A stretch of DNA of 64,000 nt from contig JBFLGF010000094.1 in assembly GCA_050230475.1 (NCBI GenBank), positions 1 to 64,000 on the forward strand, read 5' to 3'. The DNA is from Ancylonema sp. (lineage: Eukaryota). Shown here in pieces: positions 1,245 through 57,160 of the stretch. Position 1 is the first letter of the stretch. Every line of letters starts with the position of its first letter. A program made the translations under genes and the position numbers. A model generated the notes under the pieces. That model saw only the letters and a list, made by a program, of their open reading frames with translations, was not told the origin of the DNA and ran no database searches.

Positions 1245-1709
1245 TGTTAGGAGTGGAATAAAATGGAACTGCTAGCAATCTATGTTGCAAGTGCACACAT
1301 AAGGCAATGGAAAAATGAGCCGATAAGATGGAGGCTAATGAGCCGATGATCAAATGGTAGGCTAATGAGCCGATGATCAAATGGTTTGGTTGATACGGTA
1401 GGCACAACAAGGTGCAAGTACAAGAGTTGATAGGAATGCTCTAGAGGTATTCCTATCGGCTAGATATAGGAAAGTCGGCCCTAGCCGACTCTGGGCGGCT
1501 AAGTACACAACAAAATCTGGCTAAAGGCACAACTGCCATGACTAAGGACACAACATAATACTCCCTAGGGGCCAGGCGGCCGCTAGGGACACAAGTCTCA
1601 CTATAAAGGGGGAAAACTCGCTATAGGGAAATATGCTCTAATAGCGCTCTAGCGATAAGTGTGGGGACCTCGCTAAGGAGCCCTAGTGAGTGTAGCGAGG
1701 GTCCTAACA
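1245..1709 (-). repeat. 3' LTR of Gypsy copy 1
   Basis: TGTTAGG...CCTAACA termini, adjacent to the PPT; matches 6445-6578 and 13162-13571. Confidence 0.9.
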
Positions 1710-6444: not shown

Positions 6445-6578
6445 TGTTAGGAGTGGAATAGAATGGAACTCCTAGCAATCTATGTTGCAAGTGCACACAC
6501 AAAGCAATGGAAATGATCCGATTAAGATGGAGGCTAATGAGCCGATGATCAAATGGTTTGGATGATATGGTAGGTACA
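6445..6578 (-). repeat. Truncated 5' LTR (U5 part) of Gypsy copy 1
   Basis: Matches the start of the 1245-1709 LTR, then switches abruptly into Copia RNase H sequence. The PBS lies at 6432-6444. Confidence 0.88.
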
Positions 6579-13994: not shown

Positions 13995-16900
13995 TGTTAG
14001 GACCCTCGCTACAGTCACTAGGGCTCCCTAGCGAGGTCTCCACACTTAGCGCTAGAGCGCTACTAGCTCAGTTTTCCCTATAGCGAGTTGTGTCCCTATA
14101 TAGTGGGAGTTGTGTCCCTCGCGGCCGCCTGGCCCCTAGGGAGTATTCTGAGGTGTGCTTAGCTCAGGCACTTGTGCCGATAGCCAGACTTGATGTGTCC
14201 ATACCGTATTCAGTTATCCCACTTGTAGTCTTGATTCAGACTTGAGCCAGTTTCCTATATATAGTCCATAGGAATGCCTTTAGAGCATTCCTATCAACTC
14301 ATGTACTTCACTCAGATTTATATACCACCATTTTTCACATCGGCTCACGCCATCTTGTCCTATTCGGCATTTCGCCATCTTTTTGCTTGTGTGCATATTG
14401 CGACTAGCTTGCTAGGGACGTCTTTTGCAGCCGTCCCTAACACTTTGATAGGAACTTTTTTTGAAGTTTTTTTTAGAATATTCTGATTCTGAACTTCATT
14501 CATCCGCCGCCTTCTTTTTCATCTTATCATCTTCCACCATGTCTTCTCTCAATTTACAAGAATTCATCGGAAGTCTTACGCCAGATGCAACACTCTCAAG
14601 ATGAAAAATTCAGAATTTTGGCGGATGAAAACAGGGAGATTAAAGGCAATTTTAGAGAACTTTCGGAACAGTTTGCTTATGAAACTAATTTCATGGCTAC
14701 TACACGTGCTCCAGCCGTCTCAGACTACCAGCCTATCCCTACACTAATAGACCTGGTCCCATCCGATCCTCCTACATTTAATGGGACTTCTAAGGATGTA
14801 GCCACATTCTGCCACCGCATCCGTACCATGCTAAGGCTGGCTCCTACGCAGTTCCACAACCCTGTCCAGACGGTCCACTACGTCGCTACCCTCGCTACCC
14901 TCCCAACTGGTCCTGCCTACGACTGGTTTGCTACCTACCTCGACGACAATGGAGACCTCCCGGCTGGTTTCAGTGCGGTTCAGTTGCTGTAAGACCTCCA
15001 GGACTGCTTCGGGGAGGGTGACACACGCCTCACCAAGGAACGACATTTGCGCGAACTCAGACAACCAGGTTTAGTGTCAGACTTCACGGTTTAGTTCAGG
15101 GCTATTGTTAAAACCTTTCCCCCCTGGCGTGACCACCCTAGCATCTATACCTTCTTCGAGAAGCTCAAGCCTGAACTCCGCCGCGAAATCCTCAAAGTCC
15201 AACACCCTCCAGAGACTTTCTCAGCGTACGTGACCTTTGTCAAGAAAGTGGAGAACAGTATGGCTGCCAGCAGTTTGGACAGACCCTCCAAACCTGCGTA
15301 CATCCCCCCCCAAGCCAGAGCTGCAGATCAGTTCCCCCAGCAGCTGCCCCCTCACCTGCAGATCGTCCCCATGGACATAGATGGCACACGTCGCCAGATC
15401 CTGAAGGTAGAACCTGCTGAGATGGCCCGCCGTGTGGCTGGCAACCTGTGCCACTACTGTGGCTTGCCCAGGCCATGACAACAAGACTTGCCTCACAAGG
15501 GGAAGGGACGCCACCGTGCGCTTCCTCGATCTGCAGCCCCAGAGTCAAAAAACGACTACCCCACACAGTCCTAAGAGGGGTCTGTGCGGGTCCCCTTTCC
15601 CTACCCCTTCCCCCCCCTTTCCCCACCCCCCCTGGTGGCCTGCCAGCTACTCCGTTATCACCTCCCTCCCATACCTGTCCGCGTGCTGATCGACTCTGGG
15701 GCGTCAGGAAACTTTATCGACCCCCAGATCTTGGACAACCTACCCACCCACCCATCCCCAACCTATCCCGGTCGAGCTGATAGATGGCAGCCCCTCAGCT
15801 ACTGGCCCCATTACTTGCTACTTGTCGGCTCAGCTCCGATCTCCACGCGACCACACGGAGACCATCACCTTGGACGTTACCCGACTGGCGCACTGCCCAG
15901 TTGTCCTCGGTTTCCCTTGGCTGCACAACAAGCACCACAACCCAACCATAGACGACTGGCAGTCAGGCACCCTGTCCCTCACCAACCCACACTGCACTGC
16001 TCAGTGCTTGATGTCCAGCTCCTCTGCTCTTCCCCTACCCCCCCAACCTCCCCCCTCCCTCACCTCAAGCCCAGCCAAAACCTGCAGTTTTAAACGCTGT
16101 CCAACCTTCCCCAGACCCCACCCTGCTAGCCCGGCTGCCTCCCGAATACCATGACTTTGCAGACGTGTTCTCCGAAAAAGTTGCAAACATCCTCCCCCCC
16201 CACAGGTCCTACGACTTATAGATCCCCCTCCTGCCAGGCGCAAAACCCCCCTGGGGGCCAATCTATTCCTTGTCAGAACCAAAGCTGGCGACTCTCAAGA
16301 CGTACATCATAGACAACTTGCAGAATGGCTTCATCCGGCCGTCCTCCAGCCAGGGTGGAGCACCTGTCATGTTCATCAAAAAACCTGATGGCAAACTACG
16401 ATTGTGTGTCGACTACCGCAAGCTCATGCAGTCACTATCAAAAACCGTGTGCCCTCTACCCCTCATACCTGAGCTGCTGGACCGCCTCAACTCAGCCACG
16501 ATCTTCACGAAGATCGATCTCCGCAACGCTTATCACCAGCTGCGCGTTAAGGAGGGGGATGAGTATAAGACTGCTTTCCGTTGCCGCTACGGACACTATG
16601 AGTACCAAGTCTGCCCTTTCGGGCCTACCAACGCTTCAGCAGCATTTCAGTCCTTCATAAATGACGTTTTTCGTGAACCTCTAGACGTCTACCTGGAAAA
16701 CCTCCTCGACGACATGATCATCTACCCCCCTTCCCCGGCCAAACATGTCCCCCACGTCCGTGCTATCCTGGCAATCCTACGCGAGAACCATCTCTACGCT
16801 AAGATCGAGAAGTGTCAGTTTCATACTGACACTATTGCCTTCTTCGGCTACCAGGTATCCCCAACCGGCGTGGGTATGGACCCCTAGAAAGTGGCATCTC

Positions 16901-19588
16901 TCCTTGACTGGCCAAAGCCCCAGTCAGTCAAGGAGGTCCAGTCCCTTCCTCGGGTTCGCTAATTTCTACAAGCGTTTCGTTAAAAAGGCTATTCTACGGT
17001 GGCGTGCCCCCTTACCTCATTGACACGAAAGGGGGCGACCTTTGGCTGGACAACTGAGGCGCTGACGCAGCTTTCCACTCCCTAAAGCTGGCCTTCACTT
17101 CCGCTCCGGTCCTGCAACACTTTCAACCCCTGCAACCACTCACCCTCGAAGCCGACGCCTCCCGACTTCGGCCTCGGCTGCGTTTTGTCGCAGCCAGATC
17201 CGAGCGGCGAGCTCCACCCCGTAGCATACTATTCCCGCAAGTTCATTTGCGGCGGCGAACTCAACTATCCTATCTACGACAAAGAGCTGCTCTCGCCATA
17301 GTGGCTGCCTTTCGACAGTGGCGGGTCTATCTAGAAGGCGCAGCGCATCCTATCATGGTCTACACCGACCATAAAAACCTGGAGTATTTCCAGGCAGCAA
17401 GAACTACTTCCCGCAGGCACGCGAGGTGGGCCGAGACGCTGGCACAGCCTACGACTTCACTATCGTCTACAAGAAGGGGTCTAGCAATGGCAAGCCAGAC
17501 GCCCTATCCCGCAAGACCTGACTATCTGCTTCCAGCTACATCCCCCCACCCAATTCTCCCCCCACCAGCTCTTCTCCCAGTTCCCCCGGTGCGTGCAGCA
17601 GCTATCCTCCTAGCACCTAACGACCCTATCATCCTGGACATACGAGCTTCTCAGCTAGCCGACCCTACCCTCCACGCTATAGCTAATCCCTGCAACCCGA
17701 CCCGCTCGGATCCAACCCGAGTCGCACTGCGCGAGTCCCAACCCCTACACCACGAGACGGCCTGCTCTACCCGCGGCCGCCTCGCTATTCCCCCTACGGC
17801 AGCTACCCTTATCCTCTCTATCCTAACTCAGTACCACGACGCACCTATGGCAGGCCACTTCGGCACTGCCCGCACGCACGCGCTGGTGTTGTGTGGCGCA
17901 GTACTTCCACTGGCCTGGCCTCTCGAAGGCAGTGGAGGAGTACGTGCGCACGTGCGACATCTGCGCCCGGAACAAGCCGGTGCGCCATGAGCTCTATGGA
18001 TTACTGTCTCCTCTCCCGATCCCTACCCAGCCATGGACCAGCGTCTCCCTAGACTGGATTATGGACCTTCCCCCTAGCGACTACCACGACGCAATTCTCG
18101 TGGTCGTCGAGCAGGCCCACTTCATACCTACCAACTTCACATGGCGGCTCCTGGGTCGCAGCGCTGTTCGTGCACCAAGTCGTGCGCCTGCATGGGGTGC
18201 CCAGCAGCCTCATCAACGACCGCGATCCCATCTTCACCAGCCACTTTTGGCGCCGGCTGTTGGAGCTACTTGGGGTACGGGCCAACCGATCCTGTGCTTT
18301 TCACCCGCAGACGGACGGGCAGACGGAGCGCCTGAATTCGGTTCTCGAACAATATCTGCGGATCTACACCGATTACCAGCAATCTGATTGGTCCCAACTT
18401 CTGCCGCTGGCGGAGTTTGCTTACAACAACTTCCAAGCACTCCGCCCACCACCCTCTCCCCGTTCTTTGCCAACTACGGCTTCCACCCGCAGATGTCGCT
18501 GCTCCCCACCCTCCCCAAATTCCCCCAAACCCCCGCAGTCGACGACTACGTCAAAACGATCCACGACACCAGATTTCCTCCAGTCAGCGCTTCGCAAATC
18601 CCAGCGGGCGATGGAAATTTATGAAATTTGCCAATCGGAAGCGCAGATCTGCTCCGATATTTTCGCCGGGTTCAAAAAGTCTGGCTGTCCCGGCGCCACG
18701 TCGGATTCCACTCGTCCTTCCTCAAAACTCGATGTCCGTCGTCTGGGTCCTTTTCCGGTTTTGGGCCAGATCGGCACCTCGTCGTATCGCTTGGAGCTGC
18801 CGGCCTGTCCTCTGTGAAAATCCATCCCGTCTTCCACGTCAGCCTCCTCGAGCCACACAATGCCAATACGTTCTCAGGCCGTGTCGTGGCGCCTCCTCCT
18901 CCGGTCGTGGTGGATGGCGAGCCTGAGCATGAGGTGACCACGGTCCTCGATTCCAAGATCGTGCGTGGCAAGATCTTTTACTACGTGGATTGGGTCGGGT
19001 TCGATGAATCTGAGCGCTCTTGGGAACCTGCCGACAACATGGGCAATGGTGCTGACGCGGTCGCGGATTTCCATGCCACATTTCCCGATCAGCCTTCACC
19101 GCCTCCCTCTTCGCGTTCCGCGCCTTGAGAGGGGGGTACTGTTAGGACCCTCGGTACAGTCACTAGGGCTTCCTAGCGAGGTCTCCACACTTAGCGCTAG
19201 AGCGCTACTAGCTCAGTTTTCCCTATAGCGAGTTCTGTCCCTATATAGTGGGAGTTGTGTCCCTAGCGGCCGCCTGGCCCCTAGGGAGTATTCTGAGGTG
19301 TCCTTAGCTCAGGAAGTTGTGGTTAGCCAGACTTAATGTGTCCATACCGTATTCAGAGTGAGTTATCCCACTTTTAGTCTTGATTCAGACTTGAGCTAGT
19401 TTACTATATATGGTCCATAGGAATGCCCTTAGAGCATTCCTATCAACTCATGTACTTGCACTCCGATTTATACCACCACCATTTCACTCGGCTCACGCCA
19501 TCTTGCCCTATCCGGCATTTCGCCATCTTTTGCTTATGTGCACATTGCGACTAGCTTGCAGGGACGTCTTTTGCATCCGTCCCTAACA
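13995..19588 (+). mobile_element. Full-length Ty3/Gypsy chromovirus LTR retrotransposon, copy 2 (frameshifted)
   Basis: LTRs at 13995-14442 and 19140-19588 (TG..CA), with the 5-bp TSD AAGGG on both sides and [16 protein letters not shown] at 19127-19139. Encodes gag with CCHC knuckle, protease (VLIDSGASGNFI), RT (16270-16887), RNase H, integrase (FHPQTDGQTERLN) and chromodomain (YYVDWVGFDESERSWEP). Confidence 0.97.
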
Positions 19589-21838: not shown

Positions 21839-22908
21839 ATTTACAGGTCCCGCATTCGTCTTGGATACTAGTCGTCACGGATACGTCCGGGGAATACCCG
21901 GAAGGTCCGGGGCCTACAAGAACCTTCCGGGAAAAAAAATATGCTTTTTTTGATTTGTTTTCTTTTGTTTTTTATTTGGGGATTCAAAATTTTTTGTTTT
22001 TTTTTCATTTTTCCTTTGGGAGGGGCGTCTGTATCCGGGACGTGTCCGGAACACTTTCGGGCCCGAACGTGTCAAGAACATGGGAAAAACAAATGTGGCG
22101 TTGATTGCATGCATGCCATTTTTATTATTATTTTAACATGCTTGGGTCCCGGACGCGAAAATCCCGGACGCGTCCGGGACTCGTCCGACCCCGGACGCGA
22201 CACGCGTCCGGAGATCCCCGGACCATACGGGACTCAAAAAAAAAGAAAAAAAAAAAGAACACACACACACATAATTGTGGGGATCTAATGACATGTTTTC
22301 AATCACAAATATGCAATCAATGATGTTTCAACAATGGAGGAACACATGAGAAAGGTGATTTGTATTCACATGTGGACTTCAAAACGAATCATGCACACAG
22401 ATGTGTGCATGTGTCTCTCTTCACGTGACATCGGTATATACCCATCTTTTACGTTGAATCTATGTTTTTATATAACAACTTCCAACTCTGAACAGGTTGA
22501 ACCTTTTGGGACATATCCCGTACGCGATATACCGTATGCGATGCATACACATTTGATAAAGACGCATAAATTGTATGCAAAATAATCACCAATAGGTTTC
22601 ACAATGATTTCGACATGATCCTTGTGCGTGCGACAAATCTCATCTTTCGGAAACCAATGTACACGAGTATACACTTCTCGCCTTCAAAGGCCTTCGAGCT
22701 CTTCAACATTAAAAACATTAAAAGGCCATGTTCACTTGACAATCACAATTGACATGAATAGGCATTGCGCAAGGTGCAATGGTCATATACAAGTCGCAAC
22801 TTGCCCGTTACAACATTTCACTGAACACACATGTGTTGAAGCTGTAATAAAGTCTTATTCTTAGTATAAATATAAGTGATATTATGACTGTAATATTGTA
22901 ATATTGTA

Positions 22909-23757
22909 CATTGCTCCCTCGATACAACGACCCTCTTTATAACGAAAACATCGATATAACGACAATTTTTTGAAACCTTTTTAAAATCAATATGAAATCG
23001 CCCTCGATATAAGCATAACGACACTCTATACAATGACAAATTATGACAAATTATGACAAATCATGACAAATCATTTCAGAAATTTGTTACTGAATGTCTT
23101 TATAGTGTGTAGCTATTGCTCGCAGATAACGATGTATGGAAATCGAGAAAAATCAAGATCCTCATGAACGACACCTCAAATTCTCTACAACGTGTTCGAG
23201 TTGTTCCATATGTTATATCAAGAGAACGCCGCCTCTGTCCTCCTCGGGTGGTCTAGAACTAAGCTCCTACATGTGTAGCAGTGGTTCCTCCCGGGTTGCG
23301 AAGCACTCACAAGTTACACTCATTCAATGTTAACATTACGAGCTGTTAAAAAACGTCCATGTTGTTCATTGCTCCAATCGTCCACTACTTTTACTCCATG
23401 TCCAATAGAATGTGCGTGTCCGGTGTTGCTTTGTAACAATCTTAATACCTCCCCATCTCTCCTCGTAAAGTTTTGTGGTATATTTTTACCATCCGCATGT
23501 ATTGGTATCATGACGCACTTGTACAACTCGTATATCAACACACACGCTGAATTGGATAATAATGCCAACAACTTACTCTAGGAAACACATAGTAAACACA
23601 TTTGCTTGATCACTTTGCTTCATTCGCAAAGTCCCTCGATACAAGGACAGAGATTTCAGATTCTAGTAGTAAATGTCGTTATACAGTGTATAACGATACC
23701 TCGATATAACGACACTTTATTGGAAAAAAAAATTGTCGTTATATCGAGAAAGCACTG
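22909..23757. mobile_element. Decayed pogo/Tigger-like DNA transposon derivative
   Basis: TA-flanked TIRs CATTGCTCCCTCGATACAACGAC / GTCGTTATATCGAGAAAGCACTG, with subterminal TCGATATAACGAC repeats. Confidence 0.75.
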
Positions 23758-24258
23758 TAGTCATTATTATCATTTCCACCTTTATTGATATGTAATTTAG
23801 TGTGGCATTATTCCCTTCAATTTACGATAATTCCTATTTAGTATACTACTCCTACTTGTCTAAGTTTCAATATTGACCAACCTAAGACATTCAATTTGGA
23901 AGGACGCATCCTGGACGCGTACAGAGGACCCCGGACGGTCCGGGACCCATCTATGGATTTTGTTTACAATCATGTTCCACAGATTGTGAACAATAGGTAG
24001 TAAGTGCCTCAAAGTGACTGAAGCATTTGGGAGTGGTGTTGTGGTTGAATATCACAAAATCAAATAATCAATAATCGAGCTATACACATACACACGCACA
24101 CATCATCCCTGATCAAACCTATAGACAAATGCTCTTTGCCAAGATTCAAATACAACTAAGTTCCAGCCACCAAGCAACCTCCGGTTGTTTCCGAAAGTAG
24201 ACTCAGGTGAAAACAACATCAACCAAATGCGAGTCCCCGCCATCCCCCACATCGTGTT

Positions 24259-24327
24259 GGTGTCTTTCTCGGGACGTGCAAATCCTCAAAAGAGGTTTGG
24301 ACACACATCCGTCATGACGTCTTCACC
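24259..24327 (-). promoter_or_regulatory. SECIS element (form II) in the GPx 3' UTR
   Basis: Minus strand reads AUGA-C-GGAUGUGU-GUCC-AAA-CCUC-UUUU-GAGG-AUUU-GCACGUCC-CGAG. It shows the AUGA/GA core (24315-24312 and 24271-24268), an 8-bp helix II, an unpaired AAA 13 nt after AUGA, and an apical 4-bp mini-stem. It lies ~90 nt past the stop codon. Confidence 0.88.
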
Positions 24328-24401
24328 TCACCCTCTTCAGTGCAAACCCAAGATCCCTCGGGGGAGAGACATTTAGTCATACTTATGTTTACTTAGAGGA
24401 G

Positions 24402-27226
24402 TTATGGCGCTCCAAGATACGTCCTCTCCTTCTTCGGGAGGGGGCTGATGGTTTGCACGGAGAGAGGAGGAAACAAAGAACTCGTTAGCCAAAAAGGTTC
24501 CATAGAAAGTGGGTCGATAGCTGATAGCGGAAATTGATTTTGATTTTGGTTTTAGTTTCGTCCCTTGCTGCCGTTGGCATCACTATTGGTTTTGTGAAAC
24601 CGAAACTCCTTCAGTGTGAACAAAAATACATGGAAGGAGGACGTTACCAACACCTGATGTACACAGGTCGTAGGAGCATGAGGTATCGAGCAGAGAGCGG
24701 AGTACAAAGATGAGAGGAGTACTCACCGTCCTTCCAGAGCTGCGACAACGTCTGACTCGAAATCTTTGGGGTCTGCAATGGGCTTGTAGCGTCGAATCGG
24801 GATGCCGTTGCGGTCCACCAGAAACTGCGTAAGAAAGGAGAAAAGTTTGTTCCCCTTCTTCTTACATTTCTCTTTCTTTTTCTTAGTTTCCATGAGCACA
24901 AGTGGGTTTTGGTTTGAGCCGCTAAAAAAAAAAAAAAAAAAAAAAAAACAACTGCGACATAGCCTTGTTGGTGGAAGAGTGTTTGTTACTGCAAAGTTTA
25001 TAGACGTACGACAACAAGCACAAGCACAAGCATAACACCATGACGAGATTGGGATTCCACAAAATGATTTCACATGACTCACTTTTGTGTAGTTCCACTG
25101 CAACCCGACCACCAATAGTTGGGATTCCACCAAACATAAAACATAAAACACAAACAAGTCGGTCAGATGGCTTGCTTCTCCCCCCCCCGCCAACCATCAC
25201 GGTATAAGCAACGTCTACACTCAACAACGCTGACGTCATCACCACGTCTACCCCACAAGGTCACAAGGTTCTTCTCCCCACGCCCCCCTCAAACAAATAC
25301 AATCGTCACCCATTCGTCTTGAAGAGTTTCCCGTCCCCCACCTCAATCTCCCCCGCCTGCCGTTTCTTCAAGAAGGCATACAGAGGGTGGGTGGTGGAAC
25401 CCTTGACGTCAATCTGAACAGGGGGGGGGAGGAGGCAACATGTGTTCTCCGAACAGAAGGCATGACACACATGGGGGAAGAGAGAGAGAGGGCGAAGGCA
25501 GGAAGGACGACAGAGGGGAGGTAGATGAAGGTACCTTGTCAAAGACAGGGAACTAGTCGAAGGGGGACGTTGAAGCACCAGAGCACAAGAGCAGAACAAA
25601 GATTGGATACTCAGTAACCAGTCAGACACAGACACATAGACACACAGACGCGGTTTTTTTCTGGTCTTGTGCGACAGCTTGAATCACCTCTTTGTGCTTC
25701 ACTTCCGGGTTTGGTGTCTGCAGCAGCGGGAATCAATATGATAACCTTAATACAACCCTGCTACCTGCTACAGTCCTGCTACAGCCCTGCTGCAGCTGTG
25801 CAACAGCCCTGCTCTGCTTCCTCTGTACCTGGAACCCAAACTTTTGGTAGGCGTACTCTCGTTCCTCATCGCTGGACCCAGGAGCCTGACCACCAAACTG
25901 CACACAAGGAGGGGAGAACAAAACGTGGTGGCAAAATGAAGCATCTCCATACACAATTTGCCTTCTGCTTTGTGCAGTTTGGGTACCTGGTTGCAAGGGA
26001 AGGCCAGCACAGTGAACCCCTGGACCCAAGAGGGAGGGGGGGAGAAGGGGAGGGGGGGAGGGAGAAGGAAAAAAAGGGAGAGTGGGTGAATTCGGGTCCT
26101 ACATTTGGTTGCCATACACACAGAGTACGACCGAAGAGTAAGGCTGTGTGAGTCAACAAAAGAGTCATTGGCTTCGACATATCAGCAGATGGCATTTTGA
26201 TAGCACACGATTCCTTGTCTTCAGCGGCAGATAGGGGGGTGGAGTGGCTAACCTGCATGGCTGCCATTTAAAATTATATGATGTCAATATGAGCGCGTAA
26301 AAGAATGCATATGTTTTAAGATTCGTGTTTTTGACCTCACCTCGGATTCGTATTTGTTCCACAAATACCGAAGCCCTGCGATGAGAACCAAAAAAGAAGT
26401 TGGAAATGGCGTGGAGAGGACGCAAGGGCTGTGTTATTAGGACAACAAAATGAATGAAACACGTAGTCGAGATGAAAAGAAACCAACAGTATGTTGGAGG
26501 TATCAAAAAGGTCTCTGGAGGTATCAAAAAGGAAACAAGTGCTAACGAGCTGTGGTCTGACGGCAAGGTGGGCGCATGTGGCTTACCAGGATAGTTCTGC
26601 GCAGACATACACAGATATCGGACAGGTGTCAGATGGGGAGGTCAACGGACACAACTTGTAGTCCCTCTGAAATGATATTTGGTGCTGTGGCTCGATAAAT
26701 TATTGGAGTACGAGTTCACACATTGGTTTAGTTCGGAAAAGTCACATGCCTTGACATGACACGGTCAATTCGCATGCTATCACTTCTGATTGAGAATGAA
26801 AATCGCAGCACCAGTCCCCTTGTTGACCTGTCATTGACTTCTTTCTCTTTTTGGCTTTGACTTAATTGTCCCGTTGACTTTCTCCTTGACCAGTACGGAC
26901 CGGCATCCACGTGGACAGTAAGGCCTACCACGTTTTGCAGGGGTCAGGCAGACGCGATGTTGAGCACCACTGCCACCTGGCACTCAGAAGGAAGAAATGC
27001 ACTATTTACGACAAATGAAATCGTTTCGCCTGTCAATGTATAGCAGGGAATGTGGACGTTGTAGCACGCGGTGCACCGAAAAGTAACACAAGGGAGCAGA
27101 CTCCATTTGTGTACCATGCCTGACCTTGTTTTCATAGGCCTTCAGCGGGGCGGGTTCTTCCTTGTAAGTCATCGTGAAATCGTACACTGAGTTCTCTTCA
27201 CTCGCAAATGCCCCTGACAGATTCAT
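24402..27226 (-). CDS. GPX: Selenocysteine-containing glutathione peroxidase (11 coding exons; 5' end uncertain)
   Basis: GT-AG exons: 27226-27125, 26976-26929, 26596-26587, 26375-26341, 26019-25987, 25897-25829, 25552-25535, 25413-25342, 25097-25083, 24824-24727, 24444-24402. They splice in frame to ...SVYDFT...VAVVLNIASA(U)PLQNVNYPGLRYLWNKYESEGFTVLAFPCNQFGGQAPG...FPVFDKIDVKG..HPLYAFLK..IEWNYTKFLVDRNG..RRY...LGAP*. The TGA is at 26946-26944. Confidence 0.93.
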
Positions 27227-28338
27227 GGTTCAAGGTTGAATGTCTAGAGATCAGGGTCAGGGTGAGGGTTAGGGAGATCAGGTTCGCAGACTTCATATTG
27301 TAACGACCACACAGCAACCAATGGCAGAGAGCCTGTCAGTGCCCCGTCCCAAGCTCAGAACCAGGACGAGTTACTGCAACGAATCCGTGGAAAGAGGACT
27401 GATTGACAAAAAGAGGAGGATAAGGAGTAACGATGTCAGTGAGAAACAACTCGTACTGTGGAATTTGTTACGCAGCCACACCTGGTGCGTACAGAAGAGG
27501 CACAGCCAGTCCGCTTCCGAGCAGCACTTGTCGTCTGGAAGAAGCGAACCCGGACGGGACTAACGGCTCGTGTTCTAACGAGGAGCATACCACACGATTG
27601 TGTGTTTGGATACGCTGCCGAGTCACCGCCTCGAGACTGCGGACGGTAGATTCTGTTCATCAGGCAGCGGTGAAGTGAACGATTAGAGCATACTGGACAA
27701 CGTCCTGCCTGGAGAGGACTGTAATGGATTGTTGGCCTTTGCGCGCCGTGGACACCTCGGCGCTCGTTATGGATATTTTTTGTTTGCATTGTTGCTTTCT
27801 GCTTACAGATTACAGTTTCGAAGCCAGCACTCCGGTCGAGAACGATACAACGAGACAATGTCAATGGAATGATGTGCGATCAGCCCGTCGAAACGTACCA
27901 GAAAAAGAAAGAAATTATTATATCTGTCCTGTAAGCTAGTACGTTGTACTGTATACATCTCTCCGAAGTACCCTGAAATTCATATGTGGCAGAATGTCAG
28001 CATCCCACCTTGAAGATTTCGAATTTTGCGCTGACTTCCCTCACTACATTCGCCTCTCAATGCCGGGGGGGACATGACAAAGTATGTTGCAGCCATGGAC
28101 GCCATGATGCCGAGTGGAGCGCTGCTGATGGAGCAATGGCTGCAGTCTTAGTCTGCCATACATCGGCCCTCGTGACCGTCCGTACTGATGGCTGTACCGT
28201 TCCTGAGGACGGTGGGACCTCCTCTGGCGCTAGCATCCGACCGTACGTAGAGCGCCACACCGTGGGTTAACGCCGGCGCAAGAAAATGCTGGCGCTAAAC
28301 GACTCCTGTTCACCGATGTTTGACCAATCTACCGATCC

Positions 28339-28763
28339 ACGTAGGTAGACTTAACACGTGCCTCGTGGCCGTCTTGACAAATCTCTATCAATTGACGACT
28401 GGTCCACGTCAAATGCATGACTGCCACGTGCGTGCCTGCCGGAACCTCGAACTGGCGCCCAACCAGCCAGTTCGCCCTAGCAGGAAATTCAGTGAACAAA
28501 AATGGCGACCCGTCTATCGGGCACGTGGAAACAGCGGCAACGTGGTGGGCAAGGCTGTGAGTCATAGTGGTATGAACTGTCGCGCCCGACAGGGCCGCCG
28601 TTCTGTTAGCTACACGTGCTGAGATAATCACAACTTGTAGGATCCACGCGTGTAACGTGGTTCGGTGGGGCCATATCGGTCATCCTCATCTGGTAACGAT
28701 GGACACTTGTCAGCGTTTCGGGAGGGGTTGGATCGCTTTCCAGCCCGTTCTCCAACGACGTGG
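28339..28763. promoter_or_regulatory. Cluster of ACGT-core G-box/ABRE-like elements
   Basis: Nine ACGT cores in ~430 bp, including four CACGTG (28355, 28425, 28522, 28613), directly upstream of the LEA ORF. Confidence 0.6.
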
Positions 28764-28996
28764 GGGTACCAAGGTCCTTCAGGACCGATGCACCACTTTC
28801 CTTCAATGCTCTCCAGCCTCTTACATTTCTGTTCATAATCCTTCCGGACAACAAATTTTACGTTCCAATATTTCTTTGGCAGTAAGGAGACAGGCGTCAA
28901 GAATAAAGAGACCAGTGCTCAGGCAGGTGAAGCAGATTGCCAGACCTTCGAGCAGGGGCGACAGGGATTTGAACAAGATACAATTCAGGTAGCAGA

Positions 28997-30193
28997 GTGG
29001 GAATGCAATATGATGCACGAGAGGCAGGTGGTGACGCGGCCCAGAAGGCCCAAGAGAAGGGTGAAAAGGCTACACGGAAGGCCCAGGAGAAAGGCGGAGA
29101 ATATGCTCAGAAGGCCCAGGAGAAAGGCGGAGAATATGCTCAGAAGGCCCAGGAGAAAGGCGGAGAATTCGCACAGAAGGCTCAGGAGAAGGGCAGTGAA
29201 GTCTCCGAGCAAGCTCAGGATGTAGCCGGCCAGGCGAAAGAGCGCGGAGGCCAGCTGGTCGAAGAGGGGACGAAGAAGACCAAGGATGTCCAGGAGAAGG
29301 TGTCCCAGCAAGCAGGGGCAGTGAAGGACCGAGCCGGAGAGATGTGGGAGGGTGAGCAGGGCGAGAAGGTGCGAGAGACCGCCCGTTCTGCCAAAGACAA
29401 AGTAGGGCAAGCTGCCCAGGAGGCCAAGTCGCAGGGGAAGGAGTTCTACAAGGAAATCACTGAGGAGGGTGAAGGCACGGGCATTGGAGGCGCAGCTGGC
29501 CGCAGGGCCAAAGAGGGAGCCCATCAGGCTGGCCAGTTCATTACTGGTGGAGAGGATGGCCAGGGTGGCCTACCGCAGATGGCCGGCCAGTTCTTGGGAG
29601 CCATGCGGGCTCAGGGAGGTGGCATCGGTCAGGAAACTGAGTCGCTTGGCAAGGGAATGGAGCAGATTCGAGGCACCGCTGTCCAGGCCTGGGAGCAGAT
29701 TCCTTCTGAGGCCAAGGAGACTGTGGCTGCGGGTGGCAAGAAGGCGGCAGAAGTGACGGAGCGCCTGTTAAATAAAGTAGCGGTTCTTCTGGAGAAGGCT
29801 CTGGATTTCGCTGACAACAAGCTGTTTGCTCAGGAGGATGAGGATGAGGATGATGTGGAGAAGGGTCATACTTCCGGTGGTGGAAGCGGTGGCGGCCAAG
29901 GTAGTGAAGGTGGAGGGGGTATTTTGGGTGGAATCACTGCGCCGCTGCTGTCTAAGCCGGCTGCGGAACTGAAGAAGCTGCAGAAGGAGACGGAGAAGAA
30001 GAAGAAGGACAAGAAGAAGGAGAAGAAGAAGGGGTGGGCCAAGACGGTGGCGCAGGTGGTGGGTGGAGTGGTGTTGCTGTTGCTTCTCACCATGATGCTA
30101 TTCTTCCTCGGTTTCTTTCTGCTGCCGGTGCTGCTCATTGCGCTGCTGCTGATGCTCATTGGGTTCCAGTGCTATGCATGCTGTGGAGTATAA
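28997..30193 (+). CDS. Group-3-like LEA protein with C-terminal hydrophobic anchor (first ATG 29003; true 5' end uncertain)
   Basis: 398-codon ORF with 33-bp/11-aa repeats AQKAQEKGGEY and a hydrophilic A/Q/E/K/G body. An acidic patch and Lys run precede ~35 hydrophobic residues and a CYACCGV tail. Confidence 0.85.
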   Translation: MGMQYDAREAGGDAAQKAQEKGEKATRKAQEKGGEYAQKAQEKGGEYAQKAQEKGGEFAQKAQEKGSEVSEQAQDVAGQAKERGGQLVEEGTKKTKDVQEKVSQQAGAVKDRAGEMWEGEQGEKVRETARSAKDKVGQAAQEAKSQGKEFYKEITEEGEGTGIGGAAGRRAKEGAHQAGQFITGGEDGQGGLPQMAGQFLGAMRAQGGGIGQETESLGKGMEQIRGTAVQAWEQIPSEAKETVAAGGKKAAEVTERLLNKVAVLLEKALDFADNKLFAQEDEDEDDVEKGHTSGGGSGGGQGSEGGGGILGGITAPLLSKPAAELKKLQKETEKKKKDKKKEKKKGWAKTVAQVVGGVVLLLLLTMMLFFLGFFLLPVLLIALLLMLIGFQCYACCGV

Positions 30194-32087: not shown

Positions 32088-33513
32088 CTAACTCCGCCCC
32101 CTACTCTTCAACAACTCGTTAATATCTACATCCTTCTCCTTCCCAATCCTCGTCAAACTCTCTGCATTCGACGGCTCAATCTGCTTCAGTGCCGCCACCG
32201 CCAAGTCCACTCGATTCGGTCCCTCCTCCATCTTCCCACACATGCCCTCCAAACATGCCTCCAAATACTTGGCCCCTCCGACCACACACTCCCCCAAAAC
32301 GAACCCAATGCACTTGGTAGCGGGGGGGAGGTCCATGACCAGGTCGTCCAGCATGCCTGCAATTTCCAGGAAACCTCCCGCAATCGCGCTTTCTGCCACC
32401 ACCGCCCCCTCCACCAGGTGCAGCAGCAGTTTTGTCACCAGCCCTTGCTCCCTCTTCCCCTTTTCTGCCGCCAGCAGCAGGGCCTCCTGCACCACCTGGG
32501 CATGCAGGCTGGGCGACTTCAGGTCGCTCACACACACCCCAGCCTCCTTCACATCCCCCACGTTGAAAAGCTCGTCCAGCAACGAGACCGTCTTCTGCTT
32601 CCCACTCGGCTCCCACTTCATCTCCTTCTCCTTCTCCTTCTCCTTCTCCTCCACCTTCTTCTCCTCCCCCCCACCGCCAGCCATCGTTTTCCCGCCACCC
32701 GCCCCCGCTGCCGCCGCCTTGCTGGCGTCCTGCTTTGCCGCCATTGGCCGAATCTGCCCCGTCAGCGCGGACGCCTTGCTGGCGGCCGGCATCTTCCCCC
32801 CCAGAAACGGCATCTCCTCCCCCATCGCCAGTACAGCTGTCGCACTCCCTGCAGCAGCCCCCGCCACCCTCGGCCTCCTCATCAACCCCACCTCCAACCC
32901 CTCCCGGTCCACCCTCCCCCCCCCCCCCCCCCCCAGGGCCGCCGTCCCCGTACTGGGCGCCCCAGGCATCGCCATCCCCACCCCCCCCCACGCGTTCGCG
33001 AATCCCCCCCCCCCCGCCCCCCCCCCCCCCGCCCCCGCCCCCGCCCCCCGCCCTCAGCCCTGCCGCCGACCCCGCCCTCAGCCCCAACCGCTGCTCTGCC
33101 TCCGCGTGGATCTGCGTCAGAGTCATGGCGCGGATCTCCTCCCGACGCGGGACCCACTTGTTGGCTCGCGTGTCCAGAACGTTCTTGCAGCCGAACCGGA
33201 GGCGGGGCTGCACGGCCGGGTTGAGGCAGATTTCGGTGACTCGGTCGTAGTACTTCTCGCGGACTTTGGCACCCTTGGGGGACTCGTCCATCTGTTTCCC
33301 GATGTTGAGTAGGAGCTGGTTGAGGGCCTCCACGTTCTCCTCCTCGGGGATCACTTTGGGGTCGTCGCCGAGGAGCTCCTGGGGGAGGGGGGGGGGAGGG
33401 ACACAATGTGTAGTGTTTAGCTCTCTGGGATTCATGATCCTGCCATGTACTTATTGCAACAAAGTTGGGAACAAGAAAGAAAAACAAACAAACAAACAAA
33501 AACAAAACAAAAC

Positions 33514-33578
<65 letters not shown>

Positions 33579-36369
33579 GAGTTTACTCCACAAACACAAG
33601 GGGGGCGGGGGGGGAGAGAACTTCATTTCCCATTCCTGAGCAGTCCCAATTCTATGGTCCCGGGTCCCACTCCCAGATCTTCAAGCTCCCGAAAGATCCC
33701 CACCTGAATGCAGGTGTGCACTATTTTCTCGGGAATCATCTTCTTCTTGAACAGCTCCCCAATGAGGCGAATGTTCCCCAGAGTGCGCTGCTTCACCAGA
33801 ACCTCCTTATACGCGCGCTCTGCCGCCTGAAACCCTCAACCCAATACCCCACCCCCGTTTCACATCAGGTCTACCCCCGCTGGCATGGATCCTCCACCTC
33901 CCTACCCATCCCTCTTCAACAGCTTACCCCACTAGGAAACAAAATGCCCAACACGCTTCCCACAAGCCCCGGACCCCCGACCCCCAACCTCGACCCCCCG
34001 ACCGCCCCCCCCCCCACCTGCCCAGGGTCCACCATGTTCTTCGCCTCCCTCCTCAGCTCCTCCGCCCCCTCAAACTCCACCTGGCACGTGTTGAGCAGCA
34101 CCCTCCTGAACGTCTGCGGCTTGGCGGGCTCATCTGGGTTGGGGAACTCTGGCAGGGCACTGGCCAGTGAGACACAGAGGTCTGCGTAGGTGGCGCAGAA
34201 CGTGGGCTCAGACACCGCGTTGTCGAACAGGAGCGAGATGCATGACTGCATGAGCTCGCTCGTGTCGATGCCGGTCGTCAGGAGCTGGTCGAGGAGGACG
34301 TTGTACTTCTCGGGAGTGAGTTTGTTGAGGATACTAAAAGGAGAAAAAGAAACCAAAAAAAAAAACAAACAAACAAACAAACAAACAAAAAAAAAAAAAA
34401 AAACGAGAAAGGGGGGGTGAGGGACAACCCACCAATCTGCTTCCTTGTGTTCCACGAACAATGTACTGTCCACCCTTTCCCCTACCCGTAGCCCATGGCT
34501 CATGAAACCGATTGTGAATACGAAAACGAAACCCCACAACGATATCCCACAGCAATCCCTGCTGGCGACACTCCATTTCCCGCCCCCTTACCCCTTGACC
34601 GCCCTCAGCACCCTCTCCTTATCCGTGGTTGCCTTCCGCGGCTGCCAGGGGTTGGAGGCTCGGGCGATCGCATCCACCGCGCCCTGCACCAATCACGTCA
34701 CGCCACGTCAGCCCAACCTCCCCCCACACACACAGAGACGCTGTGCCCAACCCCACCCCCCACCCCACCCCCACCCTCACCAATGCTGGCCCTGCCTGTC
34801 CCTGTCCCTGCGGCTGGGGCTGCGAAAAGGTCTGGTCTGCGTTCACATTCGGCATCTTGGCCTTCCCTGCTTCCGCATTCCCCTCTCCCGCCCCCCGAGG
34901 GGCTCTGGGCTCCTGGCCCTGCTTCTGGGGCTGGGCGGAGGGCGCGCCAGGTGGCTGTCTCGGGTTGGTCGGGGCCACGGGGGTTGGGGCGGCGGCGGAG
35001 GACGTGGACTGCTGGTGCTGGCGCCAATCGGATTGGGGCTCGGGATCTCCTCCGAGGCCATTGCTCTGTGGGGCGATCCAGACGGGATGAGGTTTTGGAG
35101 GGTTCCGGGGGGCTGGGGGTGGATCTGTATCCTGCCTATGTGTGTCTGTCTGCGTTTGATGAGTTCAGGATTGCTGGATATCCGTTCTTTTTCGAGCTTC
35201 TATCGGTTAGGAACTAGGGTATAGTATCTGCAATATTTTTCAGTCATTGATGGATGTCTTCAGTGGTGGAGGCAAAACCCTGGACCTGAACCCTGAACCT
35301 ATAACCTTCCCGCCCAGACTAACACTGTCAGTGCCAGCTGTCCACAAGCCCATGGCCTGACCTTGGAAAAGGAGGCCCTGTCCGAGTTCCCTGTATCCGT
35401 CCAGCTCCGGTTCTGTGATGCCAACACGTCAGCACCCGCATCCAGAAGCTCCTGGGGAGGATCCATGGTCACCTGGGAAAAACAGGAAAATATGTTGTGA
35501 CATTTTTGGGCACCTTTACTCTTTTGGAACACCTGTCTGTGAGGCCATTGGTACATACAGAAACCAGCGATTCCATCGTTAGATGAGGCGCGTATTCCGA
35601 TGTCTTCTACTTGACATCATGTCATGCCGCAAACTACTTGTTTTTGGCCCTACAGCAGCATTGAGGTATGCTTGCGCCACGTCAGCAAAAAGTGAGTCAT
35701 ACATGCCACGTCAGCGAAAGGTGAGTCCTACATGCCACGTCAGCAAAAAGTGAGTTCTACATGCCACGTCAACGACCACCTATGCAACTCTTCCCCGCAG
35801 TATGTGCAGACTCTACATCCACACCAGCTCTCTTTATTTCCACTCTTTATTTCCGCGCTGCATCACATCAACACTTCAAGTGCCGAAGTCACCCAGTATG
35901 TCATCATGTGCCTGTATCATGTGTCCGTACCTCTTTTAGCTCCCTCATCTGGGCCTTGGTATACTTGATCAAGTTGCCCACCACTCGTGCGCTCTTCAAA
36001 TCCAGCACATTCTGCACAATCGGGCACAAGGAGAGACAGTACTCTTCAGGTCTCCAATCACCGATCAGCAAAAACGACATCCGACCCTATCCGAAAAGGA
36101 ACACCTGTTCAGACCGCTACAAAATGAACACATAAAAAACAAGAAAACAAAAATCAAAAACATCACAAGGCAGGAGCAGAGCAGGCCAAGAACCCATGCA
36201 CGGGGCGGGACATCATTGATTCCATGACAATGCTTCGGAGCGAGGTGTGCGAGCCTACGTCGAGAAAGTTTTGATTCGGCATACGCCCCATGGAGCCCAT
36301 TCCAAAGCCGCGGCCGCCCCCTGGCCGCAGCGAGTGTCCCCCGCCAGGTCTCAAACTGACTGACGTCAT
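32088..36369 (-). CDS. eIFiso4G: Translation initiation factor eIF(iso)4G
   Basis: Exon 1 (36369-36259) has SLRPGGG twice; exon 36011-35931 has [16 protein letters not shown]4[79 protein letters not shown]-terminal MA3 domain in 32088-32981. The frame break falls in poly-C runs near 32920-33050; the exon structure near 35100-35300 is not resolved. Confidence 0.92.
33517..33575. repeat. (AC)n microsatellite in an eIFiso4G intron
   Basis: Direct dinucleotide run. Confidence 0.95.
35676..35772. repeat. 29-bp minisatellite (~3.4 units), each unit containing GCCACGTCA
   Basis: ATGCCACGTCAGCAAAAAGTGAGTCATAC-type units in tandem inside an eIFiso4G intron. Confidence 0.9.
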
Positions 36370-37601
36370 CCTCTGAAAGCCCGCGAGAAACGGACCCCCC
36401 AACCGTCAATGAGACGCGGGACAAGGATAGCGGCGAAGATGCTACCCTCTTCGTGCAAGACAACGTGAGGGCAGTCGGGCGTTATGTGTCATAATGGAAA
36501 ACTTATTAAAAAATAAAAGAACCTGATTGTGTCGACTGCACCTCTCAAGTAAACGTGTCCACTGCCATGTAAGCGATGTAAGAACCACTCCTGGCATAGT
36601 GTTTTGGTATGCTCGCTCATACGAGTAGAGCGACCGAGCGACCTAGATGTAACAGCTATTAACAGAGATGATTTTCAGAAAACCCAATAAAGTACAAGAA
36701 CCCTTTATACGGAAGAAAGGGTGGCATACGGCGCTAGACGGAGCATTCAGCAACATATGCCTTGTTGGGCACTCCCACCGGATTCCCGTGCCTGTAGCTA
36801 ACGTCTGACAGTTTTGATGTAACGATTTTTAGCCCTATCCCCACTTTACTATCTCTTTATTGTTTTCACGACTGATCGGGCGACCCGACAACCTCACTCT
36901 CTATTGAGGATGTAGCCTGTTCATTGCATAAGCATAAAATTTGAACCCATAATATATATTTCCTTACCCTAAACTGTCGAAGTTTGTCAGGGTTTAAAAA
37001 AATTACTCGCCAGAGCCCCTGCTTGACATTCGACCGGCGAGGTATTGCGTCTTCGTAAGAAATACACACATCCCTAATCAGCAGTCTCCGTGACGCACAT
37101 TTCAATCGATAACCCTTACCAATATGTTATGGTCTGCCTCAGTCCAGCGTGAGCACACCACGAGTGCCCAGAAGTCGCTGCATACACCTGCAGGTTTCCT
37201 TCCGCTTCCTCCGCTACGAAACAGGGAGTCTTAAATCTCTCTCAGGGGGCGGGCAGCTGGCGCAATGTCGCCCACCATTCCAAAACCTCAATCAGTTGCG
37301 CCGACCGAGAAGTTTTTGCCGTATGCCCACAAAAGGTGTGCTTATACAGTGCGCTGATAGGAAAGTTTGGCTATACAGCGGGCTGCGGACTCGGGATGCG
37401 GGCTCGTCGATTGACTGCTCTTCAAAAGTTCTGCACATCACCCTGCTGTCAGGGATGAGATGCAGCGTAAACCCGTCCCGGGATGAAGGCTTTCGCCGAT
37501 TACAACTTCCGTGGTATTGGAGCTAGAGGAATCCTTGGACCAGATGTAGGCCACATTTACAACGCAAGAAGCGCTCTAAATTCTGGTGAAAACACGTCAG
37601 G

Positions 37602-40600: not shown

Positions 40601-41300
40601 AGGAGTGATACTACAGAAACGTTACCCCTTTATAGTGATACTTCTGGAACAGTTGTCCCACGTGGCTTCTGCCTCAGCCGAAGCTCTACTTTTCCATCTG
40701 GCAACATGCCCCCTCTATCTGAAGTGAGATTGTCAAGTGTTCAGCAGATTCTTCAGGTCGGACAGGGCTTCCATGCTGGAGGCGGCTATGATGCTACTCT
40801 GCCTTGTGATGGTTCTCCTGACCAGTTTGAAGACCCAGAGGAAGTTTTTGATGAAGACTTTCTGACTGACAGCAGTCCCCTCAGTCTCGCTGGGTGGGTG
40901 GATGAGACTGAAGGGAGCATTCCAGAGAGGGACAGTTGGACGGTGTTCCCATTTCTCAACGCTATCTTAGGAAGGCGTCAGAAGAAGAGCCAAGGCAGAC
41001 CATTTGCTGAGGACGTAAGTATCTCATCCGCAATGAACCATGCTGTTGCTGATACTGAATGCATGCAACCTGATTGCACAAGTATAAGAATGTGTTGTAG
41101 CAAAGTGTAGCTTATGGATACTGTCGACGAGGGTTGAATCAGTCTCAAATCTGCATCGTTTGCTTTATTCGGAATTTAAACTGCTGGTCTTACACACTTG
41201 AAGGGGTTTTTAAGCTTACGAATTTTTTTCTGTGTGTCTGGTGGAACAGGTGGACTTGTTTGCAGCAGCAGCTGCTCCAGTGGAGGTCGGGAGAGACTAA
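37602..41300 (+). CDS. RLK/Pelle-family cytoplasmic pseudokinase with acidic C-terminal tail (two apparent frameshifts; possibly a pseudogene)
   Basis: Spliced kinase-fold motifs: VLKRV, EFKHRVHALARIEH, PWFARIRTAGYAACGLRRLHE, GYS|APE, TMKTDVFAIGILILELLTGRPP, LDPSL, LARRCLQPSPVHRPS. HRD and DFG are absent. N-terminal WCCC cluster. Last exon 41250-41300. Confidence 0.8.
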
Positions 41301-49720: not shown

Positions 49721-50166
<446 letters not shown>

Positions 50167-56800: not shown

Positions 56801-57160
56801 ATTAGGGATTGTACGCTAAAACGTGGAAGGCGGAGAGTATCCCCGCATCGGCGGATTGACAATTAATTAGTACACCGTCCCACCCCCCGATGCCGTCCGA
56901 TTCCCGTGGTGTCAGAAAATTTGTAAGACTCGCTGCAAATTTTTTCCACTGTTCTGAAAAAAAAAACGGATCGGACGGACACAGTCTTTCCCATAGACCG
57001 TCCCCCCCTATATTTCGTACAATTCCTGTGGTTAGGGTCGGTGCACAGGTCTCCGAGGACGCGGTACATAATTTTTTGTGAGGAAAATGAGTCCCGCACG
57101 TGTATATTGCATTGTCCGTACATGCAGCTGTGCTAGGGAGGCCTTGGGTGTTCCCGGTTT

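What the first reader, a model, noticed from the sequence alone, without database searches (positions are those of the whole stretch)
24259..27226. Hidden selenoprotein gene: GPx with catalytic UGA plus SECIS in a plant-lineage genome
Seen: the spliced GPx frame is intact except for one TGA (26946-26944). It aligns exactly with the catalytic Cys/Sec: NIASA-U-PLQNVNY versus the family pattern NVASxCGLTxxNY. The other tetrad residues (Q in FGGQ, WN) are retained, and a SECIS-like hairpin lies in the 3' UTR. Established: land plants lack the Sec machinery and use Cys-GPx, whereas many green algae use Sec. Inference: the neighbours (eIFiso4G, RLK/Pelle kinase, ABRE-associated LEA genes) point to a streptophyte, so this genome would still recode UGA. 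In a streptophyte alga this helps place the loss of Sec; in an embryophyte it would be unprecedented. Gene predictors would truncate or mis-splice it.
Basis: partly seen in the sequence, partly recalled or inferred. Interest (0 to 1): 0.92.

Follow-up and report, generated by a model that had tools for sequence, protein, structure and literature searches.

The report
Selenium peroxidase aimed at thylakoid lumen
An expressed gene of what is likely a glacier alga from the sister group of land plants keeps an in-frame UGA at its active site plus a SECIS-type hairpin, so it likely makes a selenocysteine peroxidase, and a twin-arginine signal shared with its green-algal relatives predicts that it works inside the thylakoid lumen.

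Summary
The UGA is real. A spliced contig from the same sample as the window's DNA carries the exon with TGA 26946-26944 and no differences. A diverged relative keeps TGA, and 73 of 73 homologous loci that show the site have TGA, none Cys. The 3' hairpin ranks 1 of 1965 candidate sites under a SECIS score trained on homologues only.

The organism looks like a streptophyte alga, not an embryophyte. Its transcripts occur in ice metatranscriptomes.

ATG 27226 is intronic, and two upstream exons add a plastid-type transit peptide and a twin-arginine signal. The gene falls in the clade of Chlamydomonas GPX2, and the same signal is in 14 of 18 testable relatives against 0.19 expected. Best reading: a green-algal, Sec-only glutathione-peroxidase-family enzyme of the thylakoid lumen, apparently lost outright in land plants. 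I found no paper giving this location (seven searches). Location and activity are predicted, not shown.

The parts
28009..28105 (-). Exon 1 (coding part), true start; first part of the predicted plastid transit peptide. Transcript reaches at least 28113
   Evidence: X3 contig covers 28113-28009 and joins to 27652; model
27482..27652 (-). Exon 2: end of the transit peptide, twin arginine R72-R73 at 27536-27531 and hydrophobic stretch
   Evidence: X3 and X4 contigs; Tat-like rule met, 0.5% of shuffles; a relative aligns over 27479-27547
27125..27213 (-). Exon 3: Ala-x-Ala predicted thylakoid peptidase site (residues 91-93) and start of the GPx domain.
   Evidence: joint 27212/27481 in X3 and X4
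26929..26976 (-). Exon 4 (48 nt, skippable in frame) with the Sec codon TGA 26946-26944 followed by Pro
   Evidence: X4 spliced contig, 0 other letters
26587..26596 (-). Exon 5, 10-nt micro-exon
   Evidence: 9 letters between the joined sides in X4, X5, X6 match it
26341..26375 (-). Exon 6
25987..26019 (-). Exon 7 (FPCNQ motif)
   Evidence: Pfam GSHPx E 0.004 on this exon alone; joints
25829..25897 (-). Exon 8 with tetrad Gln165; no resolving Cys in this helix
25535..25552 (-). Exon 9
   Evidence: GT-AG bounds and frame; contig spacing in X3 record 10 fits an 18-nt exon
25342..25413 (-). Exon 10
   Evidence: X3 and X6 contigs, 0 other letters
25083..25097 (-). Exon 11, 15-nt micro-exon with tetrad Trp215 and Asn216
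   Evidence: 15 letters between the joined sides in X3 and X6
24727..24824 (-). Exon 12
24107..24444 (-). Exon 13: last codons, TAA at 24404-24402, and 3' UTR to at least 24107
   Evidence: X3 record 10
24260..24323 (-). SECIS-type element: ATGA core at 24315, 9-of-10-pair stem, AAA bulge, short extra hairpin, closing GA at 24270-24269
   Evidence: a relative's contig matches 20 letters at 24304-24323 and keeps the AAA and small hairpin

Best explanation
This is a spliced, expressed 13-exon gene for a glutathione-peroxidase-family enzyme whose active-site UGA is likely read as selenocysteine, and whose product is predicted to be sent into the thylakoid lumen by a transit peptide plus a twin-arginine signal. 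Steps: (1) shown: the transcript keeps UGA in frame and carries the 3' hairpin. (2) Inferred from known eukaryotic Sec decoding: SBP2 and eEFSec insert Sec on cytosolic ribosomes. (3) Predicted: TOC/TIC import, stromal cleavage near residue 55, Tat transport of the folded protein, cleavage after Ala91-Phe92-Ala93, leaving about 172 residues. (4) Inferred: the Sec-Gln-Trp-Asn tetrad reduces H2O2 or lipid hydroperoxides formed on the water-splitting side of photosystem II. There is no resolving Cys, so the oxidised Sec would be reduced by an outside thiol; I favour a lumen-facing thioredoxin such as HCF164 over glutathione. (5) Inferred: Sec stays ionised at the acid pH of the lit lumen where Cys would be less reactive, which would explain why the clade shows no Cys form and why land plants appear to have dropped the gene instead of converting it. 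The host is likely a zygnematophyte glacier alga, and the gene is the likely orthologue of Chlamydomonas GPX2.
For: UGA in spliced transcript, 0 differences. A relative about 12-19% different in DNA has Gln-TGA-Pro: the codon before changed and TGA stayed (8-letter loose end of one low-depth contig). 73 of 80 loci show the site, all 73 with TGA; 29 of 29 non-redundant. Among 112 protein hits, Cys at the site occurs only in 4 outside proteins (one land plant, three worms); one gene call read TGA as Trp. SECIS-like hairpins in 14 of 22 homologue loci, 0.9 expected; the window's ranks 1 of 1965, 29.6 bits against 20.5 for the next. Tat-like signal in 14 of 18 testable non-redundant loci, 0.19 expected from shuffles, and in 11 of 14 longer database proteins; Ala-x-Ala before the domain in 16 of 20, 6.8 expected. 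Tree: the window sits in an 8-row clade (99) inside a 41-row clade with Chlamydomonas GPX2, apart from Cys GPx (99) (quick tree). Host: eIFiso4G best hits are bryophytes at 50-54%, while bryophytes share 65-99%; identical spliced contigs in an ice metatranscriptome. Lumen pH 5.8-6.5 in light, and lumenal PRXQ and TL29 lack shown peroxidase activity (PMC3813922). Glutathione in the lumen is not established (PMC3842002). The pKa difference between Sec and Cys is from my own knowledge.
Against: No protein-level evidence for Sec, location or activity. The Sec machinery of this genome is untested, and no tRNA lies in the window. The first 55 residues hold 4 Glu, unusual for a plastid transit peptide, and no targeting predictor was available. 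My strict Tat rule failed on 4 of 18 loci and on Chlamydomonas GPX2 itself, although its SRRDLLLG is visible. Pro follows Sec in 71 of 73 loci where Gly is usual, so the chemistry may differ. PMC3095285 lists GPX2 as chloroplast-targeted and calls GPx stromal. The Sec exon of this species is covered by a single contig, in a run labelled 'DNA?' that behaves as spliced RNA. Absence from land plants rests on one word-based search, and the six closest relatives are unnamed. The tree is the quick one; the careful search did not finish.
Confidence: 0.72

Rival explanations
1. It is a true Sec-GPx but sits in the stroma or is tethered to the thylakoid or envelope by an uncleaved hydrophobic stretch, and uses stromal thioredoxin or glutathione.
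For: PMC3095285 treats chloroplast GPx as stromal and predicts only chloroplast targeting for GPX2. Four Glu in the first 55 residues; Ala-x-Ala is missing in 4 of 20 loci.
Against: Twin Arg followed by a hydrophobic stretch 26-46 residues before the domain recurs in distant green algae; that is the known layout of a Tat lumen signal (own knowledge; PMC12456178 uses the same inference for CrAPX2).
Confidence: 0.13
2. It is lumenal and contains Sec, but acts as a redox sensor or thiol oxidase that passes oxidation to partner proteins, not as a bulk peroxide scavenger.
For: Pro after Sec in 71 of 73 loci; no resolving Cys; GPX2 transcript did not rise under singlet oxygen in Chlamydomonas (PMC7230881); lumenal PRXQ is also reported not to reduce H2O2.
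Against: The full tetrad is kept and a relative matches poplar GPX5 along the whole domain at E 6.5e-38. This rival changes only step 4.
Confidence: 0.1
3. UGA is read as stop in this organism: the gene is a relic of a lost Sec system, or the exon is normally skipped.
For: Sec machinery untested here; the exon can be skipped in frame; selenoproteins are few in Zygnematophyceae (PMC6627142).
Against: The frame after UGA is intact over 135 codons and 92% identical to a relative; the exon is included in every contig that spans it; the SECIS core is kept in a relative.
Confidence: 0.03
4. The window is from an embryophyte, which would make this the first land-plant selenoprotein.
For: The best named eIFiso4G hits are bryophytes.
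Against: Only 50-54% identity to them over 101 residues against 65-99% among bryophytes; the transcript occurs in an ice metatranscriptome, where Ancylonema zygnematophytes are the known streptophytes (10.1101/2023.10.20.563300). No named streptophyte alga was among the hits, so the class is not fixed.
Confidence: 0.02

Closest known systems
Chlamydomonas reinhardtii GPX2 (CrGPxB, Cre08.g358525)
   Same: Same clade, 48% identical over 167 aligned residues, similar length, known as a selenoprotein with predicted chloroplast targeting (PMC3095285, PMC9404770). Its N-terminus also shows twin Arg, a hydrophobic stretch and Ala-x-Ala.
   Different: The papers I could read give it no lumen location. 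The window's subclade lacks the insertion before EWNY and the C-terminal CxxHPGxxxC found in 70 of 108 clade proteins, and it comes from a streptophyte.
Land-plant Cys GPx (poplar GPX5, PDB 2p5q; Arabidopsis GPX1/7)
   Same: GPx domain with Gln, Trp, Asn of the tetrad.
   Different: Separate clade; Cys-Gly instead of Sec-Pro; has the resolving Cys that the window's protein lacks; described as stromal.
Mammalian GPX4 (monomeric Sec-GPx)
   Same: Sec at the same position, SECIS-driven decoding, domain-wide match of a relative at E about 1e-31.
   Different: Sec-Gly rather than Sec-Pro; no plastid or Tat signal; uses glutathione (own knowledge).
Lumenal PrxQ and TL29/APX4 of Arabidopsis, APX2 of Chlamydomonas
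   Same: Peroxidase-family proteins placed in the thylakoid lumen.
   Different: Other families, no selenium; peroxidase activity in the lumen is doubted for PRXQ and TL29.

Membership tests
Glutathione peroxidase family (PF00255) | GSHPx domain homology | tested here: met
   Exon 7 alone E 0.004, below the curated cut-off; the 92%-identical relative P0051 carries PF00255; relative P0150 matches solved GPx at E 6.5e-38
Glutathione peroxidase family (PF00255) | Catalytic tetrad Sec/Cys, Gln, Trp, Asn | tested here: met
   Residues 130, 165, 215, 216 align with the Cys GPx positions
Glutathione peroxidase family (PF00255) | Peroxidase activity | not testable with these tools
   needs an enzyme assay
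Eukaryotic selenoprotein gene | In-frame UGA kept in mature mRNA | tested here: met
   X4 spliced contig, 0 other letters over the exon
Eukaryotic selenoprotein gene | UGA aligned with Sec or Cys of homologues, conservation on both sides | tested here: met
   73 of 73 loci with the site show TGA; Cys in outside GPx
Eukaryotic selenoprotein gene | SECIS in the 3' UTR | tested here: met
   Rank 1 of 1965 under a homologue-trained structural score, core kept in a relative; Rfam and a sequence-only model did not detect it
Eukaryotic selenoprotein gene | tRNA-Sec, eEFSec, SBP2, SecS, PSTK, SPS in the same genome | not testable with these tools
   no genome held; reported for two Zygnematophyceae genomes in PMC6627142
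Eukaryotic selenoprotein gene | Sec in the protein | not testable with these tools
   needs mass spectrometry or 75Se
Green-algal GPX2 clade | Groups with Chlamydomonas GPX2 apart from Cys GPx | tested here: met
   41-row clade, support 99, quick tree with only 4 outside rows and without Chlamydomonas GPX1
Thylakoid Tat substrate | Twin Arg followed by a hydrophobic stretch | tested here: met
   window 0.5% of shuffles; 14 of 18 loci, 0.19 expected
Thylakoid Tat substrate | Ala-x-Ala thylakoid peptidase site before the mature domain | tested here: met
   AFA at 91-93; 16 of 20 loci, 6.8 expected
Thylakoid Tat substrate | Upstream plastid transit peptide | tested here: inconclusive
   about 55 residues, 10 Ser/Thr, 8 Arg/Lys but 4 Glu; no predictor available
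Thylakoid Tat substrate | Shown transport into the lumen | not testable with these tools
   needs import assay or proteomics
Land-plant thioredoxin-dependent 2-Cys GPx | Peroxidatic Cys and resolving Cys in helix 2 | tested here: not met
   TGA at the site; no Cys in that segment in the window or in 98 of 100 clade proteins

The most novel reading that the evidence does not exclude
Green algae, from marine picoplankton types through chlorophytes to the streptophyte sister group of land plants, keep a selenoenzyme in the thylakoid lumen. It never swaps Sec for Cys because it has to work at acid pH beside water splitting, and it was among the last selenoproteins held before land plants lost Sec, leaving their lumen without an equivalent peroxidase. 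Databases hide it because gene models skip or stop at the UGA.
Probability: 0.55. Interest if true: 0.82.

Novelty: new variant of a known kind. Interest (0 to 1): 0.63.

Why it matters
How the thylakoid lumen removes peroxides is unsettled: the two lumenal peroxidase-like proteins of Arabidopsis lack shown activity and lumenal glutathione is not established. A Sec-only GPx with a conserved Tat signal offers a candidate in algae and can be tested at once in Chlamydomonas through GPX2. It also names one selenoprotein that survived into streptophytes, against the statement in PMC3095285 that Sec-GPx were lost before or during streptophyte evolution, and gives a testable reason (pH) why this one was lost rather than converted to Cys. 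The bare fact that a streptophyte alga recodes UGA is already known.

Tried and rejected
Genome search for the Sec machinery: no genome held; no tRNA in the window. Rfam scan of 22000-29000: no SECIS hit; weak on homologues too. Covariance model from 14 homologue hairpins: the alignment gave no base pairs, and the sequence-only search ranked the window's element last of 5 at E 8.9. Word search with exon 12 plus flank found nothing. An alignment of homologues with separate exons misplaced exon 3 and was dropped. NCBIfam gave no Tat-signal hit for exon 2 or the relatives; those models are bacterial. Single exons other than exon 7 gave no Pfam hit. Careful tree unfinished. Earlier findings of the scan: none. 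Dayer et al. 2008 is not held, the supplement of PMC7539508 is unreadable, and Figure S2 of PMC6627142 lost its columns, so a prior listing of Sec-GPx in streptophytes or a prior lumen prediction for GPX2 is not excluded. Rejected: start at 27226 (intronic); a sequencing error or editing at TGA (deep DNA contig of X2 and the X4 contig agree); TGA-to-Trp recoding (the site is the catalytic one, and the Trp in P0046 is a gene caller's read-through); the 147-codon ORF 27436-27879 (overlaps exon 2 in another frame, RNA joints cut it). No structure was predicted, since sequence homology settled the fold.
Full report
Verdict. Its claim to novelty is weaker than it thought, because Sec use in streptophyte algae is published. 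It also took the wrong start codon and so missed the part that may be new, a conserved signal for the thylakoid lumen.

Gene structure. The gene lies on the minus strand in 13 exons from 28105 to 24402, all introns GT-AG, 265 codons, with one internal stop, TGA 26946-26944 at codon 130. No genome is held, so I used public runs. X1 and X2 hold 0.96 of the stretch's words. X3 and X4 are the same sample, are labelled 'DNA?', but give spliced contigs. X5 and X6 are ice metatranscriptomes. An X4 contig of 783 nt runs 27171-27123, 26974-26929 with no other letters, the 10-nt micro-exon, then 26376-26340 and on into exon 7, so UGA is in the mature transcript. An X3 contig covers exons 6-13 and the 3' region to 24107. 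X3 joins 28009 to 27652, and X3 and X4 join 27481 to 27212. An X6 contig matches exons 8-12 without differences, so this species is expressed in at least one ice sample; that contig does not reach the Sec exon.

Is UGA selenocysteine? A second, diverged transcript occurs in X3, X5 and X6 (6 differences in 50 over the Sec exon, 13 in 69 over the signal). One low-depth X5 contig ends in 8 letters that read Gln-TGA-Pro where the window has Ala-TGA-Pro. Whether it is a paralogue or a second species is open. A scan of metagenome contigs with patterns from downstream of the site gave 80 loci. 73 of 80 show the catalytic motif and all 73 have TGA; 7 show no motif. After removing near-duplicates, 29 of 29 have TGA, and Pro follows in 71 of 73. 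Of 112 protein hits, four have Cys there and are ordinary GPx of a land plant and three worms, one reads TGA as Trp, 55 start within a few residues after the site, and the named algal models lack the Sec stretch.

SECIS. The hairpin starts with ATGA at 24315, 86 nt after the stop, and closes with GA at 24270-24269. Taken alone it is modest: Rfam misses it, the folding z-score is -1.39, my loose pattern hits 16 of 300 shuffled UTRs and 12 other sites in the window, and a sequence-only model gives E 8.9. The same pattern hits 14 of 22 homologue loci against 0.9 expected (4 more had too little 3' sequence). A score trained on those 14 hairpins, the window left out, ranks this one 1 of 1965 sites, 29.6 bits against 20.5. 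A relative's contig matches 20 letters at 24304-24323 and continues with the same AAA and small hairpin, and its changed stem letters still pair as far as I can read them.

Host. The eIFiso4G segment at 33988-34290 has bryophytes as best named hits, but at 50-54% identity, while bryophytes share 65-99% there. With the ice metatranscriptomes this points to a streptophyte alga, likely a zygnematophyte such as Ancylonema, the known glacier streptophytes (10.1101/2023.10.20.563300, passages; no occurrence of 'selen' or 'peroxidase'). No named streptophyte alga appeared among the hits, so the class is inferred from one marker and a habitat label.

The targeting signal. The two missed exons add 93 residues before the domain: about 55 residues rich in Ser, Thr and Arg (with 4 Glu, which is atypical), then SRRQVLLG, a hydrophobic stretch and AFA. 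A fixed rule for twin Arg plus hydrophobic stretch is met by the window (0.5% of shuffles) and by 14 of 18 non-redundant loci whose upstream frame could be read, 0.19 expected; 11 others could not be tested. It is met by 11 of 14 longer database proteins; Chlamydomonas GPX2 fails the strict rule though it shows SRRDLLLG. Ala-x-Ala precedes the domain in 16 of 20 loci, 6.8 expected. This is the known layout of a thylakoid Tat signal (own knowledge; PMC12456178 draws the same inference for CrAPX2, passages).

Family. A quick tree of 45 rows puts the window with seven unnamed sequences (99) inside a 41-row clade that holds Chlamydomonas GPX2 and other chlorophyte and prasinophyte-type proteins, apart from four Cys GPx rows (99). 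I chose 23 proteins, 17 loci and 4 outside domains; Chlamydomonas GPX1 was not included and the careful search did not finish. The tetrad is complete. The resolving Cys of plant GPx is absent in the window and in 98 of 100 clade proteins. No named embryophyte falls in the clade, although the database holds bryophyte proteomes; the closest relatives are unnamed, so this absence is provisional.

Mechanism. Shown: transcript, UGA, hairpin, signal sequence, conservation. Inferred: SECIS-directed Sec insertion, plastid import, Tat transport, and peroxide reduction on the lumen side of photosystem II with an outside reductant. PMC3813922 (passages) gives lumen pH 5.8-6.5 in light, names HCF164 as the leading lumenal reductant, and doubts peroxidase activity for PRXQ and TL29. 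PMC3842002 (passages) says lumenal glutathione is not established. Sec ionises at lower pH than Cys (own knowledge), which would explain a Sec-only clade. I give 0.93 to Sec insertion, about 0.8 to the lumen, and 0.72 to the whole reading.

What is known. PMC6627142 (parts 1-2 of 5, passages, supplement search and part 45 of 52) reports the full Sec machinery in all streptophyte algal classes and loss in the embryophyte ancestor; its family-by-species figure was not legible. PMC7539508 (passages; supplement unreadable) and PMC13578239 (passages) agree. PMC11096116 (one passage) adds nothing here. PMC3095285 (passages) lists GPX2 as a chloroplast-predicted selenoprotein, calls GPx stromal and says Sec-GPx were lost before or during streptophyte evolution. 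PMC9404770, PMC7230881 and PMC8234872 (passages) give no lumen location for GPX2. Seven searches found no paper that places a selenoprotein or a GPx in the lumen. Dayer et al. 2008 is not held and may bear on this.

Score. The gene is a likely orthologue of a known but little-studied gene, and Sec in streptophyte algae is known. The lumenal, Sec-only reading is not in the papers I could search and is directly testable in Chlamydomonas. Interest 0.63.

Noticed in passing
window 28114-28972: The GPx gene and a LEA-like ORF (28973-30193, plus strand) are head to head; the 859-bp spacer holds 13 ACGTG cores against 145 in the whole 64 kb (about 2 expected), so they may share an ABRE-rich promoter.
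   Followed up: partly
P0052, P0030, P0037, P0038, P0050 and other named models: Public gene models of this clade, including C. reinhardtii Cre08.g358525 v5, skip the stretch that holds the Sec codon.
   Followed up: yes
window 26376-26413: One X3 contig starts inside the intron before exon 6: a partly spliced or alternative form.
   Followed up: no
window 24304-27547 (X2, X3, X5, X6 contigs): A second homologous gene, 81-88% alike in DNA, is present as transcript and, in X2, as DNA with other introns; paralogue or second species unresolved.
   Followed up: partly
L019:402, L034:3986: Two loci have Sec-Gly instead of Sec-Pro and a longer spacing from the twin Arg.
   Followed up: no
P0037-P0147: 70 of 108 clade proteins end in a CxxHPGxxxC motif that the window's subclade lacks; it could be a disulfide or a resolving centre in chlorophytes.
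   Followed up: no
window 32092-35200: eIFiso4G gene with very long Gly/Ala-rich inserts between the MIF4G and MA3 regions.
   Followed up: partly
window 1700-11200, 14500-19100, 42300-45600: Frameshifted LTR retroelement remains of gypsy and copia type, named from motifs by recall.
   Followed up: no
window 49680-50330: About 600 bp of CA repeat.
   Followed up: no
window 57160-58800: Minus-strand gene with a signal peptide, two Cys-rich repeats, a Pro-rich stretch and a transmembrane segment, like a receptor ectodomain; no Pfam hit.
   Followed up: partly
window 37100-41100 and 61800-62700: Protein kinase fragment (Pkinase E 1e-5) and a second LEA-like gene (LEA_4 E 0.0095).
   Followed up: partly
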